Shown: positions 1 to 4,646 of the stretch, piece by piece
Numbering within the stretch: position 1 is the stretch's first letter
How the letters are laid out: the number at the start of each line of letters is the position of its first letter
NCBI GenBank assembly: GCA_021786105.1
Contig: JAJYNW010000014.1
Coordinates: 1 to 28,338 of the forward strand
Origin: a bacterium
GTDB lineage: Bacteria > Patescibacteriota > Microgenomatia > Daviesbacterales > UBA10151
Direction of reading: 5' to 3'
DNA length: 28,338 nucleotides
The notes under the pieces: model-generated
Told to the model about the DNA's origin: nothing
The model's database searches: none
What the model saw: the letters and a program-made list of their open reading frames with translations, nothing else
Translations under genes and position numbers: made by a program

Positions 1-8
1 GTTTTCAT
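1..8 (-). CDS. 5' end of a gene running off the left edge (product unknown)
   Basis: Minus strand reads AAGGAGG (20-14), 5 nt, then ATG AAA AC (ATG at 8-6): strong SD plus start codon. Confidence 0.55.
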
Positions 9-135
9 CAATTCCTCCTTTCAGCTCAGATAATGATTTAATTCCAGCAAGTTTGAGTGCCGTTTTAATATACCTGAACCCCTTAATTCTAACTGAAAGG
101 TGTATATGATCCGCTAGCTCACCTACATTAATTTG

Positions 136-165
136 TTGACACGAAGATAGATTAATTGGTATAGT
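136..165 (+). promoter_or_regulatory. sigma70-type promoter for the ileS leader
   Basis: TTGACA 136-141, 18-nt spacer, TG 157-158, TATAGT 160-165 (extended -10). Confidence 0.75.
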
Positions 166-177
166 AACGATACTTAA

Positions 178-243
178 ATGAATACGCAAAGATTAGCAAC
201 TATTACTGCAATTATTATTACCTCTCCTGCGGGAGGGTCCTAA
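178..243 (+). CDS. Ile/Thr-rich attenuator leader peptide MNTQRLATITAIIITSPAGGS
   Basis: Hand translation: ATG 178-180 to TAA 241-243; ATT at 202 and ATT ATT ATT at 211-219; upstream of ileS and overlapping alternative hairpins. Confidence 0.8.
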   Translation: MNTQRLATITAIIITSPAGGS

Positions 244-303
244 CTTAGTCTCTAAAAAGAGATTTAGGTTAAGATGGGCCTCCCAAATCGGGAGGTTTTT
301 TTT
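221..303 (+). promoter_or_regulatory. transcription attenuator (1:2, 2:3 and 3:4 alternative hairpins)
   Basis: CCTCTC 221-226 can pair with GGGAGG 231-236; GGGAGG 231-236 can pair with CCTCCC 279-284, closing a long hairpin 241-271; CCTCCC 279-284 can alternatively pair with GGGAGG 290-295. Confidence 0.8.
279..303 (+). terminator. intrinsic terminator of the attenuator
   Basis: CCTCCC-AAATC-GGGAGG stem-loop followed by T8 (296-303). Confidence 0.85.
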
Positions 304-328
304 ATGGAAAAATGAAAGGGGGTAAAAA

Positions 329-628
329 ATGAATGGAAATGGGATAGAAAGAAGAGTAGAAAATTGTGACTTTTGCACGAAAAAGGATGAAAAGGGAAAG
401 ATAGTGGGAGGAGATTTTTGTATTGTATTTTCTGGGACTTCCGGCGTTAGAGAGAAATTTTCAGAGGATAAGTTAGCATCGAATGGCTGCATCCTGTTCT
501 GGTCCCGCCAGATTAATGAGCCAGTGGAAGGATGCTCTGTTTTTCAGGAGCAGGCAGCAAAAGAGCGAGAAGCCAGGCTAGCAGCTATAGATGAGAAGGT
601 TATAGAAACCATGAAAGCGCTAGTTTAG
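329..628 (+). CDS. small Cys-rich hypothetical protein (CxxC plus 3 further Cys)
   Basis: 99-aa ORF with purine-rich SD-like AAAGGGGG before the ATG; fills the gap between attenuator and ileS. Confidence 0.6.
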   Translation: MNGNGIERRVENCDFCTKKDEKGKIVGGDFCIVFSGTSGVREKFSEDKLASNGCILFWSRQINEPVEGCSVFQEQAAKEREARLAAIDEKVIETMKALV

Positions 629-686
629 GAGAAGCTTTTTTGTTAGAATTGAATCAGATAAAGCGAGAGAGATCGCTTGCAAAATT

Positions 687-3572
687 ATGAATAAATTTAA
701 ACCAGTTTCGTCACAAGTTAATTTTCCGGCTCTGGAAAGAGAGCTTTTAGATTATTGGTACAAAGAGGGAATTGTGGAAAAATATCTCAAAAGAAATGAA
801 TCTTCAGATAAAAAGTTTTCTTTTTTGGATGGGCCGATTACTGCCAATAACCCAATGGGGGTGCATCATGCTTGGGGTAGGACATATAAAGATTTATGGC
901 AGAGATTTTTTAATATGCAGGGTTTTAAACAAAGATTTCAGAATGGTTTTGACGAACAGGGACTTTGGGTTGAAGTGGAAGTTGAAAAAGAATTAAATTT
1001 ACATACTAAAAAAGATATTGAAAATTTAATCCCCGGAGATAAGTTTAAGAGTTTAGAAAAATTTATCAATCTTTGTAAAAGCCGGGTTAAAAAATATTCT
1101 GCTATTCAAACAGAACAGTCAAAAAGACTGGGTTATTTTATGGATTGGGATAATTCTTATCACACCTCTTCTGATAAAAATAATTACGCCATCTGGAGTT
1201 TTTTGAAGGTGGTCAATGAAAAAGGTTGGTTATATAAGGGTCGTGATAGTGTGCCGTGGTGTCCGCGTTGTGGTACCGCTATTTCCCAACATGAGATTTT
1301 GACTGAGGATTATAAAGAAGTAGATCATGAATCAGTATATTTTAAATTACCTATTAAGGGTCGGGATAATGAATATTTGTTAGTTTGGACAACAACTCCC
1401 TGGACGATTCCGGCAAATGTGGCTGTAGCAGTTGATCCAAAGGCAGAATATGGTGGCTATTCGGTTACGGGACAGACGTTATGGATAATGAAGCAACGCG
1501 CAGAAGAGTTAGTAAAATCAGGGATTTTAGGGCAGTTGGGGGAAGGTAAAATTGTTAAAGGAAAAGAGTTGGTGGATTTAGAATACGATGCTCCTTTTGA
1601 CCATTTGCCCAGGGTAAATAAAGCTTTAGAAGGATATATTCACCGGGTTGTAGAAAACGATGAGTTGATTTTACCGATAAGTAGCGAAGAAGGAACTGGT
1701 TTAGTCCATGTAGCTACTGGGGCTGGTTCTGAAGACTTTAAGCTGGGAGCGAAATTAAGTTTGCCGGTTGTTGAAATAATTGATGAAGAGGCAAATTATT
1801 TAGACGGGATGGAAGAATTTTCCGGTAAAAATGCCAAAAAGCATCCTGAGCTAATCTTTGAATATTTAAAGATTAAGGTAAATGGTAAGTTTTTACTGAC
1901 TACTGAAAGAATTAAACACCGTTATCCTTATTGTTGGCGTTGTAAAACAGAGCTTGTTTGGCGGGTTGTGGATGAGTGGTATATTGCTATGGATATAGAT
2001 GACGCTTCTGGTACAACTTACAGAGAGCAGATGATGGAAGTTGCCAAAAAAATTAATTGGATTCCAAAGTGGGGATTGGACAGGGAGTTGGACTGGTTAA
2101 AAAATATGCACGATTGGCTGATTTCTAAAAAGAGGTATTGGGGATTGGCTTTGCCGATTTGGGAATGCGGCGATTGTGGTAGCTTTGAAGTGGTTGGCAG
2201 TAAGGAAGAGCTAAAAGAAAGGGTAGCAGAAGGATGGCAGGAGTTTGACGGTAATTCACCTCATCGTCCCTGGATTGATCAAATTAAAGTAAAGTGTACA
2301 AAATGTGACCAGTTGTGTTTTAGAATACCTGATGTGGGTAATCCATGGCTTGATGCCGGTATTGTGCCGTTTTCTACAATGCCCGAAGGTTGGTTCCCGG
2401 CCGAATTTGTGACTGAGGCATTTCCGGGACAATTTAAAAACTGGTTTTATGCGATGATTGCCATGTCTACAGCACTTCAAAAGACAAATCCTTTCAAAAA
2501 TTTATTAGGGCATGCATTGGTAATGGACGAAAAGGGTAAGCCAATGCATAAATCTACGGGAAATATGATTGAATTTAACGAAGCGGCAGATAAAATTGGT
2601 GTTGATGTAATGCGCTGGATGTATGCAACGCAGAATCCGGAATATAACCTTAATTTTGGTTATAGTGTGGCGGATGAAGTCAGGAGAAGATTTTATTTGA
2701 TTTTGTGGAATAGTTATAAATTTTTTGTTGATTATGCATCTTTGACGGAAGGACAAGTAAAGGGGATAAAGGATTTAGAGGGGATAAGTATTTTAGATAA
2801 ATGGATTTTGGCCAGATTAAACCAATTAATTCTTAGTGTAAGCAAGAGTTTAACAAAATATGATGCAACTAGCGCCTCAAGAGGAATTGAAGATTTTGTA
2901 GTCAATGATTTTTCAACCTGGTTTATCAGGAGATCGAGGGACAGAGTTAGTTTTGAGGCTAAAGAAACAGAAAAAAGTACAGCTCTTTCAGTTATGTATG
3001 AAGTATTGGTGAAAATAAGCAAGCTTTTAGCTCCTTTTATGCCGTTTATTTCTGAAACAATATACAAAAATCTGACAAATGAAGAATCGGTTCATTTGCA
3101 GGATTTTCCTGAGGTGCAAAAGGAATTAATTGATGAGGAATTAATTGAAGATATGACGGTTGTCAGAAAAATTGCAGAAGCAGCCCATGCTAAAAGAAAG
3201 GAAGCTGGGGTCAAGTTAAGACAGCCTTTGGCGTCATTAGCTTACAAAACTACTGTTAAATTAAGTTCCGAGCTCGAAGAGATTTTGGCTAAGGAAGCTA
3301 ATGTTAAAAAGATTGAGTACCAAAAATCCTCGGCTACAGAACCGCAAGTTTCTCTGGATACTAAAATTACTCAAGACTTGCAAGAAGAAGGTGAAGTCAG
3401 GGATTTGATCAGGCAAATACAACAACTTCGGAAAGAGCAGAATTTGACTTTAGCTGATAAAACCAAAATAATTGTTCCCGCTTGGCCTAAAACTTTTGAA
3501 AACCAGATACTTAAAGGTACGGCTTCTGTTTCAATAGAAAAAGGTCCGGAGCTCAAGATTTCAAAGGTATAA
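687..3572 (+). CDS. ileS: isoleucine--tRNA ligase, type 2 (IleRS2)
   Basis: DGPITAN followed by HIGH-equivalent GVHH; WTTTPWT editing motif; GTGLVH; HRYPYCWRC; DWLISKKRYWG; KMSKS-equivalent PMHKS; IleRS2-type C-terminus (EGEVRDLIRQIQQLRK) with no C-terminal Zn finger. Confidence 0.97.
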   Translation: MNKFKPVSSQVNFPALERELLDYWYKEGIVEKYLKRNESSDKKFSFLDGPITANNPMGVHHAWGRTYKDLWQRFFNMQGFKQRFQNGFDEQGLWVEVEVEKELNLHTKKDIENLIPGDKFKSLEKFINLCKSRVKKYSAIQTEQSKRLGYFMDWDNSYHTSSDKNNYAIWSFLKVVNEKGWLYKGRDSVPWCPRCGTAISQHEILTEDYKEVDHESVYFKLPIKGRDNEYLLVWTTTPWTIPANVAVAVDPKAEYGGYSVTGQTLWIMKQRAEELVKSGILGQLGEGKIVKGKELVDLEYDAPFDHLPRVNKALEGYIHRVVENDELILPISSEEGTGLVHVATGAGSEDFKLGAKLSLPVVEIIDEEANYLDGMEEFSGKNAKKHPELIFEYLKIKVNGKFLLTTERIKHRYPYCWRCKTELVWRVVDEWYIAMDIDDASGTTYREQMMEVAKKINWIPKWGLDRELDWLKNMHDWLISKKRYWGLALPIWECGDCGSFEVVGSKEELKERVAEGWQEFDGNSPHRPWIDQIKVKCTKCDQLCFRIPDVGNPWLDAGIVPFSTMPEGWFPAEFVTEAFPGQFKNWFYAMIAMSTALQKTNPFKNLLGHALVMDEKGKPMHKSTGNMIEFNEAADKIGVDVMRWMYATQNPEYNLNFGYSVADEVRRRFYLILWNSYKFFVDYASLTEGQVKGIKDLEGISILDKWILARLNQLILSVSKSLTKYDATSASRGIEDFVVNDFSTWFIRRSRDRVSFEAKETEKSTALSVMYEVLVKISKLLAPFMPFISETIYKNLTNEESVHLQDFPEVQKELIDEELIEDMTVVRKIAEAAHAKRKEAGVKLRQPLASLAYKTTVKLSSELEEILAKEANVKKIEYQKSSATEPQVSLDTKITQDLQEEGEVRDLIRQIQQLRKEQNLTLADKTKIIVPAWPKTFENQILKGTASVSIEKGPELKISKV

Positions 3573-3590
3573 AGGATTACAATCTTTCCG

Positions 3591-4646
3591 ATGAGGATCC
3601 AGAAAATCATAAATTGGCCAATTAGTTTGGCAAGCTTTTTACTTATTTCTATTGGGATACTTATAATTTATTCTTCCTCGAGGGAATTAGCTCTCCAGCA
3701 ATCAATATTTGTTATTATTGGCTCGGTATTTTTTTTTCTAGTTTCTAGGTTCGAACTTCGATCGATTAAGGTTTTAATTATCCCGATGTACATATTTATT
3801 TTAATAATGCTGGTGGCTGTTTTAATCTTGGGTATTGAAACAAGGGGTAGCCTTCGGTGGATTCCATTAGGTATATTTAATGTTCAGCCGTCGGAATTTG
3901 CCAAACCAATCTTAATACTGCTTTTGGCTAAATTTTGGTCAGAAAATTCGCCTAGCTGGTTAAACATTTTTAAAAGTCTGATTTGGGTCGCCCCGGCCCT
4001 TTTATTAGTTTTCAAGCAACCGGATTTGGGTTCGTCGCTGACTTTAATGGTTATTTGGTTGGGAATGTTGTTGGTTACGCGAGTTTCTGTCAAAAAGGTG
4101 ATATTGCTTGTTTTGATTATGGTTTCTATAATTCCAATCAGTTGGTTGTTCCTGCATGGATATCAAAAAGAGCGGATTTTAAGCTTTCTGTCGCCCGAAT
4201 CTGACCCTTTGGGTAAGGGTTACAATGTCATTCAGGCCACAATTGCTGTGGGGTCTGGACAACTGACAGGAAGGGGTTTGGGGATGGGAACTCAATCAAG
4301 GCTGCAATTCTTGCCGGAATTCCGGACTGATTTTATCTTTGCTGCAATTGCTGAAGAGCTAGGTTTTGTGGGTTCAATGCTTATTTTGTCTTTATATTTG
4401 GTGCTGTTGGTTTTTTGTTTAAGGGCAGCCCAAAGAGTAAATAGCCAATTCAGCTTTTTGATAATATTGGGAGTGGCGTCAATGCTTTTTTTCCAAGTTT
4501 TTGTTAATATCGGCATGAATTTAGGCGTCTTACCCATTACAGGCATTACTTTGCCGCTGATTTCCTATGGAGGAAGCTCGGCAGTTGCTACTCTGTTACT
4601 ACTGGGAATGGTGGTGTCTTCAGCACGAAATAAAAGGGAAGATTGA
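3591..4646 (+). CDS. rodA: SEDS family peptidoglycan polymerase RodA/FtsW
   Basis: Motifs RWIPLG, QPSEFAK, KQPDLGS, GSGQLTGRG, LPEFRTDFIF, TGITLPLISYGGSS; multi-TM. Confidence 0.9.
   Translation: MRIQKIINWPISLASFLLISIGILIIYSSSRELALQQSIFVIIGSVFFFLVSRFELRSIKVLIIPMYIFILIMLVAVLILGIETRGSLRWIPLGIFNVQPSEFAKPILILLLAKFWSENSPSWLNIFKSLIWVAPALLLVFKQPDLGSSLTLMVIWLGMLLVTRVSVKKVILLVLIMVSIIPISWLFLHGYQKERILSFLSPESDPLGKGYNVIQATIAVGSGQLTGRGLGMGTQSRLQFLPEFRTDFIFAAIAEELGFVGSMLILSLYLVLLVFCLRAAQRVNSQFSFLIILGVASMLFFQVFVNIGMNLGVLPITGITLPLISYGGSSAVATLLLLGMVVSSARNKRED

What the first reader, a model, noticed from the sequence alone, without database searches (positions are those of the whole stretch)
136..303. Unannotated Ile-sensing leader-peptide attenuator upstream of ileS
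Seen: promoter (136-165), a 21-codon ORF with four ATT codons (three consecutive, 211-219) and four Thr codons, and three mutually exclusive pairings: 221-226/231-236, 231-240/276-284 enclosing stem 241-271, and terminator 279-284/290-295 plus T8. Known: this is the geometry of trpL/thrL/pheM-type ribosome-mediated attenuators, whereas ileS in Firmicutes and Actinobacteria is normally under T-box control. Inference: stalling at the Ile codons masks segment 1 and frees segment 2 to form the antiterminator, so low Ile-tRNA charging induces IleRS. The leader ATG is only about 6 nt from the predicted start site and has no SD. I know of no description of this in CPR, which generally lack amino-acid biosynthesis.
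Basis: partly seen in the sequence, partly recalled or inferred. Interest (0 to 1): 0.85.

Follow-up and report, generated by a model that had tools for sequence, protein, structure and literature searches.

The report
Isoleucine-sensing leader-peptide attenuator before ileS
A tiny gene rich in isoleucine codons, followed by an RNA switch and a transcription stop signal, sits in front of the isoleucine-tRNA ligase gene of a small uncultured (CPR) bacterium and belongs to a large, apparently undescribed family of such amino-acid sensors in that bacterial class.

Summary
No T-box or other Rfam family is there.

The reading as a ribosome-mediated, Ile-sensing attenuator is supported by comparison, not by experiment. 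Nine genomes of the genus (Candidatus Daviesbacteria, class Microgenomatia) carry the same element with an Ile run just before segment 1. Sister elements with the same GGGAGG/CCUCCC switch carry other codon runs that match the genes behind them:
- Ile: citramalate synthase
- Phe/Tyr: DAHP synthase, pheS, tyrS
- Cys: cysteine and cystathionine enzymes
- Met: metG
- Leu/Val: ilvB

The core pattern occurs in 101 of 401 genomes of the class, and the reversed control in none.

- A 99-codon orphan ORF lies between the attenuator and ileS.
- ileS keeps its own promoter-like extended -10.
- In relatives the first gene behind the Ile leader is often citramalate synthase.
- T-boxes do exist in relatives.

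No RNA data were available. The kind is known; this is a new lineage with a modular, nearly leaderless form. My searches found no description in CPR.

The parts
1..127 (-). Context only: the end of a multi-copy insertion sequence. Its transposase gene starts at window 8 and runs leftwards out of the window.
   Evidence: These bases are 100% identical to three other contig ends of the genome. They belong to a 1233-nt unitig at 4.3-4.4 times the depth of the unique part. The 380-aa product matches the rve_3 integrase core.
136..165 (+). Promoter of the leader transcript: -35 TTGACA (136-141), 18-nt spacer, extended -10 TGnTATAGT (157-165).
   Evidence: It scores 11 of 12, the best site in 1-4000. 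An exact TTGACA and a TAnnAT -10 stand at the same place in 7 of 7 Ile leaders scored.
178..243 (+). Leader ORF of 21 codons plus stop (MNTQRLATITAIIITSPAGGS). It has no SD. The predicted 5' UTR is about 5 nt.
   Evidence: The equivalent ORFs in relatives keep the reading frame (gaps of 3 nt only).
211..219 (+). Regulatory codons ATT ATT ATT. A fourth ATT stands at 202-204.
   Evidence: A run of ATT codons directly before segment 1 is present in 7 of 7 aligned leaders and in the two further ones.
221..227 (+). Segment 1 (CCUCUCC). It pairs with segment 2 and lies inside the footprint of a ribosome stalled on the last Ile codon.
231..240 (+). Segment 2 (GGGAGGG UCC). It pairs either with segment 1 or with segment 3.
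   Evidence: GGGAGG is conserved in 6 of 7 aligned leaders; G003 has GGGGGG.
241..271 (+). Middle hairpin, which begins at the stop codon TAA (241-243). It is enclosed by the antiterminator.
   Evidence: Its sequence differs in each relative but every one folds into a hairpin. Across 94 modules the spacer folds better than shuffles (median z -2.3; 57 of 94 below -2).
276..284 (+). Segment 3 (GGG CCUCCC). It is the 5' half of the terminator or the 3' half of the antiterminator.
   Evidence: CCTCCC is invariant in 7 of 7.
290..303 (+). Segment 4 (GGGAGG UUU) and the run of eight T: the intrinsic terminator.
   Evidence: Invariant in 7 of 7.
329..628 (+). orf99, the first gene behind the attenuator (SD AAAGGGGG at 315-322). 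It is a small protein of no known family with four Cys residues.
   Evidence: No Pfam or NCBIfam match. It found only itself in the 5.8-billion-cluster search. It shares C13, D14, C16, C31 and C69 with the small ORFs at the same place in G015 and G016.
641..649 (+). Promoter-like extended -10 (TGTTAGAAT) of ileS itself.
   Evidence: TGnTAnAAT stands 16-21 nt before the ileS ATG in 14 other ileS loci and 46 nt before it here (15 of 29 loci).
687..3572 (+). ileS (isoleucine-tRNA ligase, 961 aa), followed by ftsW, rplU, rpmA and parB.
   Evidence: TIGR00392 at 671 bits against a cut-off of 621. Neighbouring genes. No terminator-like site lies between 303 and 687.

Best explanation
Window 136-303 is a ribosome-mediated (leader-peptide) transcription attenuator that reads the charging of tRNA-Ile.

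Proposed mechanism (inferred, not shown):
- Transcription starts about 171-173. The 21-codon ORF is translated almost from the 5' end, as a leaderless or near-leaderless message.
- When Ile-tRNA is plentiful, the ribosome runs to the stop codon at 241-243 and covers segment 2 (231-237). Segment 3 then pairs with segment 4, and RNA polymerase terminates at the T8 run.
- The same outcome follows without any ribosome, because segment 1 (221-227) then holds segment 2.
- When Ile-tRNA is scarce, the ribosome stalls on ATT ATT ATT (211-219). Its footprint covers segment 1 but not segment 2. Segment 2 pairs with segment 3 around the middle hairpin, the terminator cannot form, and transcription continues into orf99 and, with no terminator in between, into ileS.

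ileS also has its own promoter-like element, so the attenuator adds an Ile-responsive share to a basal level.

The element is one member of a paralogous family in class Microgenomatia. The family reuses one switch (GGGAGG / CCUCCC-loop-GGGAGG-U run) with different codon runs for different amino acids.

Shown here: the anatomy, its conservation, and the match between codon run and downstream gene. Inferred: translation of the ORF, stalling, termination, and the effect on IleRS.
For: Anatomy and folds in the window.
- With a ribosome footprint ending 15 nt after the first P-site base, stalling on the last ATT masks up to base 229. That covers all of segment 1 and none of segment 2.
- The masked minimum-energy fold is then the antiterminator. 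With the ribosome at the stop codon it is the terminator.

Conservation within the genus.
- Nine genomes carry the element. G000, G003, G005, G007, G012, G015 and G016 come; G002 and G013.
- In the seven scored, all have an exact TTGACA, a TAnnAT -10, an ATG 7-16 nt after the -10, and no SD.
- All nine have an ATT run directly before segment 1.
- Alignment gaps within the ORF are 3 nt long.
- The middle hairpin changes sequence but keeps folding.

Position relative to ileS. The leader stands upstream of ileS on the same strand in 7 of 14 genus genomes whose ileS locus I read, in front of two IleRS forms only about 33% identical.

Match between codon run and downstream gene. Of 43 downstream proteins scanned, 24 received a family, and 21 of those fit the leader's residue class:
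- Ile: citramalate synthase in 3
- Phe/Tyr: DAHP synthase in 4, plus chorismate synthase, pheS and tyrS
- Phe: prephenate dehydratase
- Cys: cystathionine-beta-synthase/cysK-like in 4
- Ser/Asn-rich: serA in 2 and a serB-like protein in 1
- Met: metG in 2
- Leu/Val: ilvB in 1

Family anatomy across 94 modules.
- 90 have an ATG ORF of at least 8 codons ending within -6 to +50 nt of segment 2, against 21 of 88 at control positions.
- The stop codon lies a median 16 nt after the first base of segment 2 (quartiles 13-17).
- The stretch from segment 2 to segment 3 folds at a median -19.8 kcal/mol, against -10.3 for the terminator hairpin.

Specificity of the pattern. It is found in 101 of 401 class genomes, and the reversed control in 0.

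Other explanations excluded. No T-box or other Rfam family reaches its threshold.
Against: - There are no RNA or functional data. No RNA run holds the locus.
- The leader ATG has no SD and sits only about 5 nt from the predicted start, so its translation is assumed.
- Segments 1-4 are almost invariant. None of the 14 RNAalifold pairs shows a compensatory change, so the key helices have no covariation support.
- With segment 1 masked, the full-length minimum-energy fold still keeps the terminator in 3 of 7 relatives (G007, G015, G016). Those cases need a kinetic argument.
- A run of three Ile is not rare by itself.
- The link to ileS is weak outside this genus. Only 1 of 80 other loci with this IleRS form has the leader within 2.5 kb. 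Six of 14 genus genomes lack it. No ileS follows the class-level Ile leaders.
- ileS has its own promoter-like -10 and no SD close to its ATG in the window. How much read-through raises IleRS is therefore open.
- Nineteen of 43 downstream proteins got no family. Searches used strict E-value cut-offs, which may explain some of these.
- Three assigned proteins (an amino-acid racemase, AlaXM and a HAD hydrolase) have no obvious link to their leader.
Confidence: 0.72

Rival explanations
1. The element is a working Ile attenuator, but its target is only the gene directly behind it: citramalate synthase in relatives, the orphan orf99 here. ileS is transcribed from its own promoter, so IleRS is not regulated by it. 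On this view the window's copy is a relic left when cimA was lost.
For: - cimA is the first gene after the Ile leader in G002, G012, G013 and in G282 and G311.
- The leader and ileS are syntenic between the window and G012, but the gene between them is non-homologous.
- G000 has no cimA.
- A conserved TGnTAnAAT stands before ileS in 15 of 29 loci, including all five leader-bearing loci in that set. G002, read later, also shows TGTTAGAAT before its ileS ATG. In G013 I see no such motif in the 330 nt shown (by eye).
- 79 of 80 other ileS loci of this form have no leader.
Against: - No terminator-like site lies between 303 and 687, so read-through transcripts should include ileS.
- The order leader, one gene, ileS is kept in 7 genomes and across two IleRS forms.
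- After cimA was lost, the leader stayed intact in G000, G015 and G016, with full promoter, ORF and switch. In G008 it decayed.
Confidence: 0.2
2. The switch is real but is set by something other than, or in addition to, a stalled ribosome. One candidate is pairing of the SD-like GGGAGG segments with the anti-SD end of 16S rRNA, in a terminating ribosome or a free 30S subunit. Another is an RNA-binding protein that recognises the invariant GGGAGG/CCUCCC segments.
For: - Segments 2, 3 and 4 are near-invariant SD-like and anti-SD-like sequences across leaders for different amino acids. The class-wide hits were selected by the pattern itself, so their invariance is by construction.
- The stop codon sits a median 10 nt after the end of segment 2, which is an SD-to-codon distance.
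Against: - The codon run changes with the function of the downstream gene. This needs codon-specific sensing, which is what a translating ribosome provides.
- No candidate protein is linked to the loci.
- In the window the stop codon is only 4 nt after segment 2.
Confidence: 0.06
3. It is an independent small gene, either a hydrophobic peptide or a small RNA with its own promoter and terminator, and it has no regulatory role for downstream genes. Alternatively it is a chance arrangement.
For: It is a strong promoter and strong terminator about 130 nt apart. The peptide is hydrophobic. No expression data exist.
Against: - What is conserved is the codon run and the RNA segments, not the peptide.
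- Sister elements swap the residue class in step with the downstream gene.
- The elements always point towards a gene that starts within tens of bases.
- There is no Rfam match.
Confidence: 0.02

Closest known systems
pheM leader of the pheST operon in Escherichia coli and other gamma-proteobacteria (leader-peptide attenuation of an aminoacyl-tRNA synthetase)
   Same: A short ORF with tandem cognate codons, alternative 1:2, 2:3 and 3:4 pairings, and an intrinsic terminator in front of a synthetase gene. PMC1262725 (passages read) names pheST as the classical case. The same family here includes Phe/Tyr-rich leaders in front of pheS.
   Different: It senses a different amino acid. There is no sequence relation: Rfam Phe_leader scores only 23.5 bits against a threshold of 55. 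The E. coli leader has an SD and a longer 5' UTR (recalled). Here another ORF lies between the attenuator and the synthetase gene, and the synthetase keeps its own promoter-like site.
ilvL / ivbL / thrL leaders of the ilvGMEDA, ilvBN and thr operons (Ile-containing regulatory codon runs)
   Same: Ile codons in a leader peptide set read-through of a terminator. In relatives the Ile leader controls an Ile-pathway enzyme, citramalate synthase.
   Different: Those leaders mix Ile with Val, Leu or Thr codons (recalled; the ilvBN case is described in PMC4117421). Here only Ile is conserved. The Thr codons of the window are not conserved in relatives.
'ileS leader CDS' (CCNA_03934) of Caulobacter crescentus
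   Same: A small translated ORF on the ileS leader found by ribosome profiling (PMC4117421, passages read). A leader ORF before ileS is therefore not without precedent.
   Different: In the passages I read it is only named and used as a control. No codon run, switch or mechanism is given there, and I did not see its sequence. It comes from a different phylum.
Polycysteine leaderless short ORFs of mycobacteria (cysteine-responsive attenuators)
   Same: Leaderless mini-ORFs with a run of one codon that control downstream operon genes (bioRxiv 10.1101/834739; title and start of abstract seen in the search listing). The family here includes CCC leaders before cysteine-pathway genes and starts 7-16 nt after the -10 hexamer.
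   Different: I did not read how the mycobacterial elements act. The elements here have a canonical intrinsic terminator and an explicit antiterminator.
T-box leaders of ileS (Firmicutes; translational T-boxes of Actinobacteria)
   Same: The same logic: low charging of tRNA-Ile raises ileS expression. A weak T-box-like element (29.5 bits, with the UGGUACC core) stands before ileS in one genome of the same class, G036.
   Different: A T-box binds the uncharged tRNA directly and needs no translation. The window has no T-box match at E up to 10, and the leader is only about 125 nt long.

Membership tests
Ribosome-mediated (leader-peptide) transcription attenuators, trpL/thrL/pheM type | A short ORF in the leader transcript with tandem codons of the sensed amino acid | tested here: met
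   ORF 178-243 has ATT x3 at 211-219 plus ATT at 202-204. The same is seen in 9 genus genomes.
Ribosome-mediated (leader-peptide) transcription attenuators, trpL/thrL/pheM type | An intrinsic terminator between the leader ORF and the first structural gene | tested here: met
   Stem 276-284/290-298 plus T8. It is invariant in the 7 aligned leaders.
Ribosome-mediated (leader-peptide) transcription attenuators, trpL/thrL/pheM type | A mutually exclusive antiterminator (2:3), with segment 1 placed so that a ribosome stalled on the regulatory codons masks it and a ribosome at the stop codon masks segment 2 | tested here: met
   Masked folds of the window switch as required. In relatives the antiterminator is the minimum-energy fold in 4 of 7 when segment 1 is masked, and the terminator in 7 of 7 with the ribosome at the stop codon. 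The stop codon is tightly placed relative to segment 2 in 90 of 94 modules.
Ribosome-mediated (leader-peptide) transcription attenuators, trpL/thrL/pheM type | The regulatory codons match the amino acid handled by the downstream genes | tested here: met
   In the window, Ile codons precede ileS. Across the family, 21 of 24 assigned downstream proteins fit. Nineteen of 43 were unassigned.
Ribosome-mediated (leader-peptide) transcription attenuators, trpL/thrL/pheM type | The leader ORF is translated (has a start signal) | tested here: inconclusive
   There is no SD. The ATG is 7-16 nt after the -10 hexamer in 7 of 7, which fits leaderless or near-leaderless initiation. The frame is kept by 3-nt gaps. 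No ribosome or RNA data exist.
Ribosome-mediated (leader-peptide) transcription attenuators, trpL/thrL/pheM type | Base-pair covariation supports the helices | tested here: inconclusive
   None of the 14 consensus pairs has a compensatory change because the segments do not vary. The middle hairpin varies in sequence and still folds in every relative, but it was not aligned in register.
Ribosome-mediated (leader-peptide) transcription attenuators, trpL/thrL/pheM type | Read-through responds to charging of the cognate tRNA | not testable with these tools
   No RNA holder was listed. One metatranscriptome contig set was laid and nothing mapped.
T-box leader (Rfam RF00230) | A match to the T-box covariance model (specifier loop, T-box sequence, antiterminator bulge) | tested here: not met
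   There is no T-box match at E up to 10 in window 1-4000 and none at E up to 0.001 in the whole genome G000.
Rfam Phe_leader (RF01859) and other curated leader families | A score at or above the family's gathering threshold | tested here: not met
   Phe_leader scores 23.5 bits against 55, E = 1. There were no gathering-level matches in 18 related loci.

The most novel reading that the evidence does not exclude
The window's element is one copy of a single modular attenuator cassette that has spread through class Microgenomatia. It is found in 101 of 401 genomes there, against 5 of 284 in other Patescibacteria classes. One fixed switch made of an SD-like and an anti-SD-like helix (GGGAGG / CCUCCC) is re-aimed at no fewer than seven amino-acid classes (Ile, Leu/Val, Phe/Tyr, Cys, Met, Ser/Asn and Phe) simply by changing the codon run of a leaderless mini-ORF.

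On this reading the helices are held fixed because the ribosome's own anti-SD takes part. A ribosome at the stop codon, typically about 10 nt after segment 2, would hold GGGAGG by base pairing, making the ribosome a sequence-specific part of the switch. The cassette would be the main amino-acid sensing device of these reduced genomes, partly in place of T-boxes.
Probability: 0.15. Interest if true: 0.85.

Novelty: new variant of a known kind. Interest (0 to 1): 0.66.

Why it matters
Almost nothing is known about gene regulation in the candidate phyla radiation, whose members cannot be grown alone. Here a textbook mechanism, leader-peptide attenuation, turns up as a large, uniform and easily recognised family in one CPR class.

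The family controls synthetase genes (ileS, metG, pheS, tyrS) and the remaining amino-acid pathway genes. That gives a direct read-out of which amino acids these organisms monitor, and a simple sequence pattern for annotating them. Many members precede small ORFs of unknown function, which marks those ORFs as likely parts of an amino-acid starvation response.

For RNA biology, the family is a natural series of switches that share the same helices but differ in codon run. They start almost at the 5' end of the message, which suits tests of ribosome-polymerase coupling and of leaderless translation.

For the window itself, IleRS expression is probably tuned to Ile-tRNA charging without a T-box.

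Tried and rejected
- Rfam scans found no curated family. I ran the window at E up to 10 and 18 related loci at gathering thresholds. T-box membership is rejected for the window.
- RNAalifold on the seven Ile leaders gave no covariation because the segments do not vary, and MAFFT did not put the middle hairpin in register. I did not build a covariance model. I used per-sequence folds and shuffles instead. One search counted overlapping matches (119) and was replaced (94 unique modules).
- No RNA holder was listed for the locus. The one metatranscriptome contig set I laid had nothing on it. This says nothing about expression.
- orf99 has no Pfam or NCBIfam family and found only itself in the large protein search. 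AlphaFold2 on a 3-sequence alignment gave pLDDT 48.5, too poor to use or to search with. The longer and shorter length classes were not searched.
- A test of whether orf99 is a remnant of citramalate synthase gave no tblastn match better than E 0.47.
Those at 199-207 lie too far upstream for a stalled ribosome to reach segment 1 (inference from footprint size). I rejected Thr as a conserved signal.
- Searches used strict E-value cut-offs (1e-40, 1e-40, 1e-60) to keep the output short. 'No family' there is weak evidence. Seven proteins were rescanned at 1e-12, and four of them still had none.
Supplementary files of papers were not consulted. The supplement of PMC4117421 may hold the sequence of the Caulobacter ileS leader ORF.
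- Papers read: PMC1262725 and PMC4117421 as passages; PMC7143001 as one passage (irrelevant: it concerns bacteriocin leader peptides); 10.1101/834739 only in the search listing.
- 'Not in print' rests on these searches, which found nothing relevant.
Full report
**What is in the window**

Bases 136-165 hold the best promoter-like site of the first 4 kb. It reads TTGACA, an 18-nt spacer, then TGnTATAGT, and scores 11 of 12.

Twelve bases after the -10 hexamer an ATG opens a 21-codon ORF, 178-243, encoding MNTQRLATITAIIITSPAGGS. There is no SD-like motif in the 16 bases before the ATG.

The ORF carries ATT at 202-204 and ATT ATT ATT at 211-219. CCTCTCC (221-227) and GGGAGGG (231-237) follow directly.

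After a hairpin at 241-271 comes GGGCCTCCC-AAATC-GGGAGGTTT and a run of eight T. The stem is 276-284/290-298 and the T run is 296-303. This is the best terminator-like site of the region.

The free fold has three hairpins at -38.2 kcal/mol, z -3.2 against shuffles.

I masked the RNA as a ribosome would, taking the footprint to end 15 nt after the first P-site base.
- With the A site on the last ATT, segment 1 is covered. The fold becomes 231-236/279-284 plus 238-240/276-278 around the middle hairpin, and the terminator is gone.
- With the ribosome at the stop codon, only the terminator forms.

**What lies around it**

The terminator is not followed by ileS directly.
- A 99-codon ORF (329-628) with a strong SD (AAAGGGGG, 315-322) comes first.
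- ileS follows at 687-3572 (TIGR00392, 671 bits against a cut-off of 621).
- Then come ftsW, rplU, rpmA and parB.
- No terminator-like site lies between 303 and 687.

Before ileS stands TGTTAGAAT (641-649). An extended -10 of this form (TGnTAnAAT) is found before the ileS ATG in 15 of 29 ileS loci. It starts 16-21 nt before the ATG in the other 14 and 46 nt before it in the window. All five leader-bearing loci in that set have it. ileS therefore very likely has its own promoter.

Upstream, window 1-127 is the end of an insertion sequence.
- It is identical to three other contig ends.
- It is part of a 1233-nt unitig at 4.3-4.4 times the local depth.
- It encodes a 380-aa transposase with an rve_3 core.
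- It ends 8 nt before the -35 hexamer.

Record titles of the nearest relatives name the organism group as Candidatus Daviesbacteria, in the Microgenomates of the Patescibacteria (CPR).

**Conservation of the Ile leader**

A DNA search of 41 related genomes returned many short matches to the terminator region. Reading them showed a whole set of elements of the same build.

Nine genomes of the genus have an Ile form. Seven came:

| Genome | Leader peptide |
|---|---|
| G000 (the window) | MNTQRLATITAIIITSPAGGS |
| G003 | MLNKISQIILIIITSSEGGYLR |
| G005 | MFKRSGQIAIEIIITSNLGGFLQ |
| G007 | MNMRRIEIIDIIIAPRKGGFFA |
| G012 | MNTRTITGIIEIIITSKTGGVFV |
| G015 | MNLISNIIIEIIITSKGGGFLA |
| G016 | MFTLRTEIIITIITSKKGGFFV |

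G002 and G013 added two more.

What these share is not a peptide. They share an ATT run that abuts segment 1, the four RNA segments, and the promoter.
- All seven scored have an exact TTGACA, a TAnnAT -10 (six with TG), an ATG 7-16 nt after it, and no SD.
- In the alignment, the two gaps inside the ORF are each 3 nt long.
- The middle hairpin has a different sequence in each genome and folds in each.

The weak points are these.
- The four segments hardly vary, so RNAalifold finds 14 pairs and no compensatory change.
- With segment 1 masked, the full-length minimum-energy fold is the antiterminator in 4 of 7 (G000, G003, G005, G012). It keeps the terminator in G007, G015 and G016, whose terminator stems are longer.
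- A run of three Ile is not rare by itself: about 0.9% of random 20-codon ORFs, and 51 of 5785 small ORFs in this genome.

**Relation to ileS**

I read the ileS locus in 14 genus genomes.

| Situation upstream of ileS | Genomes |
|---|---|
| Leader on the same strand, one gene in between | G000, G002, G007, G012, G013, G015, G016 |
| Decayed remnant | G008 |
| No leader | G003, G004, G005, G009, G014, G018 |

The gene between leader and ileS varies.
- It is citramalate synthase in G012 (TIGR00977, 454 bits against a cut-off of 450). It is also citramalate synthase in G002 and G013, by tblastn at 1e-117 and 1e-133 to the G012 protein.
- It is a small four-cysteine ORF in G000, G015 and G016.
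- It is a 126-aa ORF in G007.

The genus has two IleRS forms, about 33% identical over the first 300 residues. Both score above the TIGR00392 cut-off, and the leader stands before both.

The window and G012 are alike in the leader (71%) and from ileS onward (72%). The gene in between is unrelated.

G000 has no citramalate synthase by profile or tblastn. None of five genomes tested has ilvC above its cut-off.

Outside the genus the link to ileS fades.
- Only 1 of 80 loci with this IleRS form has the leader within 2.5 kb, and that one is the G012 contig.
- No ileS follows the Ile-type leaders found elsewhere in the class. There the first gene is citramalate synthase in G311 and G282.

The most economical history is an Ile attenuator of a cimA-ileS unit. 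In the window's genome that unit has lost cimA, leaving orf99 and ileS behind the leader. This is inference.

**A family of sister elements**

The same switch (GGGAGG, a hairpin, CCTCCC-loop-GGGAGG, a T run) follows mini-ORFs with other codon runs.

In 401 genomes of the class, the pattern GGGAGG-N25-55-CCTCCC-N3-8-GGGAGGTTTTT occurs in 101 genomes and 85 of 294 genera. The same pattern read backwards occurs in none. In a phylum-wide sample it occurs in 5 of 284 genomes of other classes.

I fetched 60 class loci holding 72 matches and sorted their leader peptides by residue run before annotating the genes behind them. I scanned 43 downstream proteins, counting those of the genus loci. Of these, 24 received a family and 21 fit the leader.

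| Leader type | Downstream protein (count) |
|---|---|
| Ile | citramalate synthase (3) |
| Phe/Tyr-rich | DAHP synthase (4), chorismate synthase in the same operon, pheS, tyrS |
| Phe run, with a variant module | prephenate dehydratase |
| CCC | cystathionine-beta-synthase/cysK-like enzymes (4 of 4) |
| Ser/Asn-rich | serA (2), serB-like (1, below cut-off) |
| Met-Met | metG (2) |
| Leu/Val-rich | acetolactate synthase (1) |

Three assigned proteins have no evident link to their leader: an amino-acid racemase, AlaXM and a HAD hydrolase. Nineteen got no family, partly because of the strict cut-offs I set.

Family anatomy over 94 unique modules:
- 90 have an ATG ORF of at least 8 codons that ends within -6 to +50 nt of segment 2. 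At control positions 900 nt away the figure is 21 of 88.
- The stop codon lies a median 16 nt after the first base of segment 2 (quartiles 13-17).
- 81 have a CCUCC-like segment 1 within 60 nt upstream.
- The spacer folds better than shuffles (median z -2.3).
- The stretch from segment 2 to segment 3 folds at a median -19.8 kcal/mol, against -10.3 for the terminator hairpin.

The tie between codon run and gene function, and the fixed place of the stop codon, are what one expects if a translating ribosome sets the switch. They are hard to explain otherwise.

G000 itself holds two more members. These are a Leu/Val-type and an aromatic-type leader in a divergent pair on contig C7, both before small ORFs with no family.

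**How it most likely works**

See the best explanation. The sequence and comparisons show the parts, their geometry, their conservation and the codon-to-gene match. The following steps are inferred:
- initiation on a leaderless or about 5-nt-leader message;
- stalling at ATT when Ile-tRNA is short;
- termination at the T run;
- read-through reaching ileS and raising IleRS.

No RNA data could be had.

**Comparison with what is known**

The mechanism is the classical one of trpL, thrL, ilvL and pheM. The closest functional parallel is pheM-pheST, a synthetase under leader-peptide attenuation. PMC1262725 names it as the known case, and reports T-boxes, not leader peptides, before ileS in Actinobacteria.

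A small translated 'ileS leader CDS' is named in Caulobacter (PMC4117421). No mechanism is given in the passages I read.

Leaderless polycysteine mini-ORFs act as cysteine-responsive attenuators in mycobacteria (10.1101/834739, listing only).

The element is not a T-box and does not reach any Rfam leader family's threshold. T-boxes do exist in relatives. Three of 41 genomes have a match above threshold and 24 of 41 have one at E up to 0.001; G000 has none. One class member, G036, has a weak T-box-like element directly before its ileS. So the same gene is under different RNA sensors within one class.

My searches found nothing on leader peptides or attenuators in CPR, Patescibacteria or Microgenomates.

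**Verdict**

The kind of system is known.

What is new:
- the lineage;
- the near-leaderless start;
- one fixed SD-like/anti-SD-like switch reused for many amino acids across a quarter of the sampled genomes of a CPR class;
- Ile-leader control placed ahead of ileS.

Confidence that this is a ribosome-mediated Ile attenuator is about 0.7. Confidence that it materially regulates IleRS is lower, about 0.5.

Noticed in passing
window 1-127 (continues on G000:C7 26287-27548): This is the end of an insertion sequence of about 1.2 kb with a 380-aa rve_3 transposase. It is present at several places in the genome (three other contig ends are identical; depth is 4.3-4.4 times the unique sequence). It ends 8 nt before the -35 hexamer of the leader promoter.
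   Followed up: partly
window 329-628; L045:2384-2599(-); L048:1266-1463(+): The ORF between the Ile attenuator and ileS is an orphan (no family; it found only itself among 5.8 billion clusters). It shares four Cys and one Asp (CDxC...C...C) with the 71-aa and 65-aa ORFs at the same place in G016 and G015. It may be a small metal-binding protein co-expressed with IleRS. The AlphaFold2 model was too poor to use (pLDDT 48.5).
   Followed up: partly
window 641-649 and the same place in 14 other ileS loci: A conserved extended -10 (TGnTAnAAT) starts 16-21 nt before the ileS ATG in relatives, which implies a leaderless or near-leaderless ileS message. In the window an extra stretch of about 28 nt with a small hairpin (661-678) separates it from the ATG.
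   Followed up: partly
L045, L046, L048 versus window 687-3572: One genus holds two IleRS forms only about 33% identical in the first 300 residues, both above the TIGR00392 cut-off. The form in a genome does not predict whether the Ile leader is present.
   Followed up: partly
G000:C7, L056 11791-11960 (-) and 11960-12147 (+): The window's genome has two more attenuators of the family, placed back to back. A Leu/Val-rich leader (MNLILIESLLVLVTLLTVLLRGACLGGLFR) and an aromatic leader (MKSHQPTFSFYFTYFWFTSRKGGWLMS) each precede small ORFs with no known family. Many family members in other genomes also precede such small orphan ORFs.
   Followed up: partly
L042 2424-2598 (-), genome G036: A weak T-box-like element (29.5 bits; threshold 93) with the UGGUACC core stands directly before ileS in another family of the same class. 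T-box matches above threshold occur in 3 of 41 relatives.
   Followed up: partly
L185, gap between the first and second ORF after the Ile leader: A Phe-run leader (MQKSGKTFLFFFTFA) with a variant switch (GCGGAGG / CCTCCG) precedes prephenate dehydratase. The strict search pattern therefore undercounts the family.
   Followed up: no
L025 (G008), about 200 nt before ileS: A decayed copy of the Ile leader: a truncated ORF (MNLQRIK), no Ile run and no antiterminator, but a terminator-like CCTCGCC-AAG-GTGGGG followed by T7.
   Followed up: no
window 304-315 and the same place in relatives: The bases after the T run, (A/G)TGGAAAAA, recur in most family members. In the window they form a three-codon mini-ORF (ATG GAA AAA TGA), 8 nt after the GGGAGG of the terminator. 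Its meaning is unknown. It could be part of the ribosome-binding region of the next gene.
   Followed up: no
L060 (G033): Two modules lie in one locus. By N-terminal sequence only (not scanned against any family), one looks to lie before a thrS-infC-rpmI-rplT-like gene row and one before pheS/pheT-like genes. The first leader is Leu-rich, which does not obviously fit thrS.
   Followed up: no
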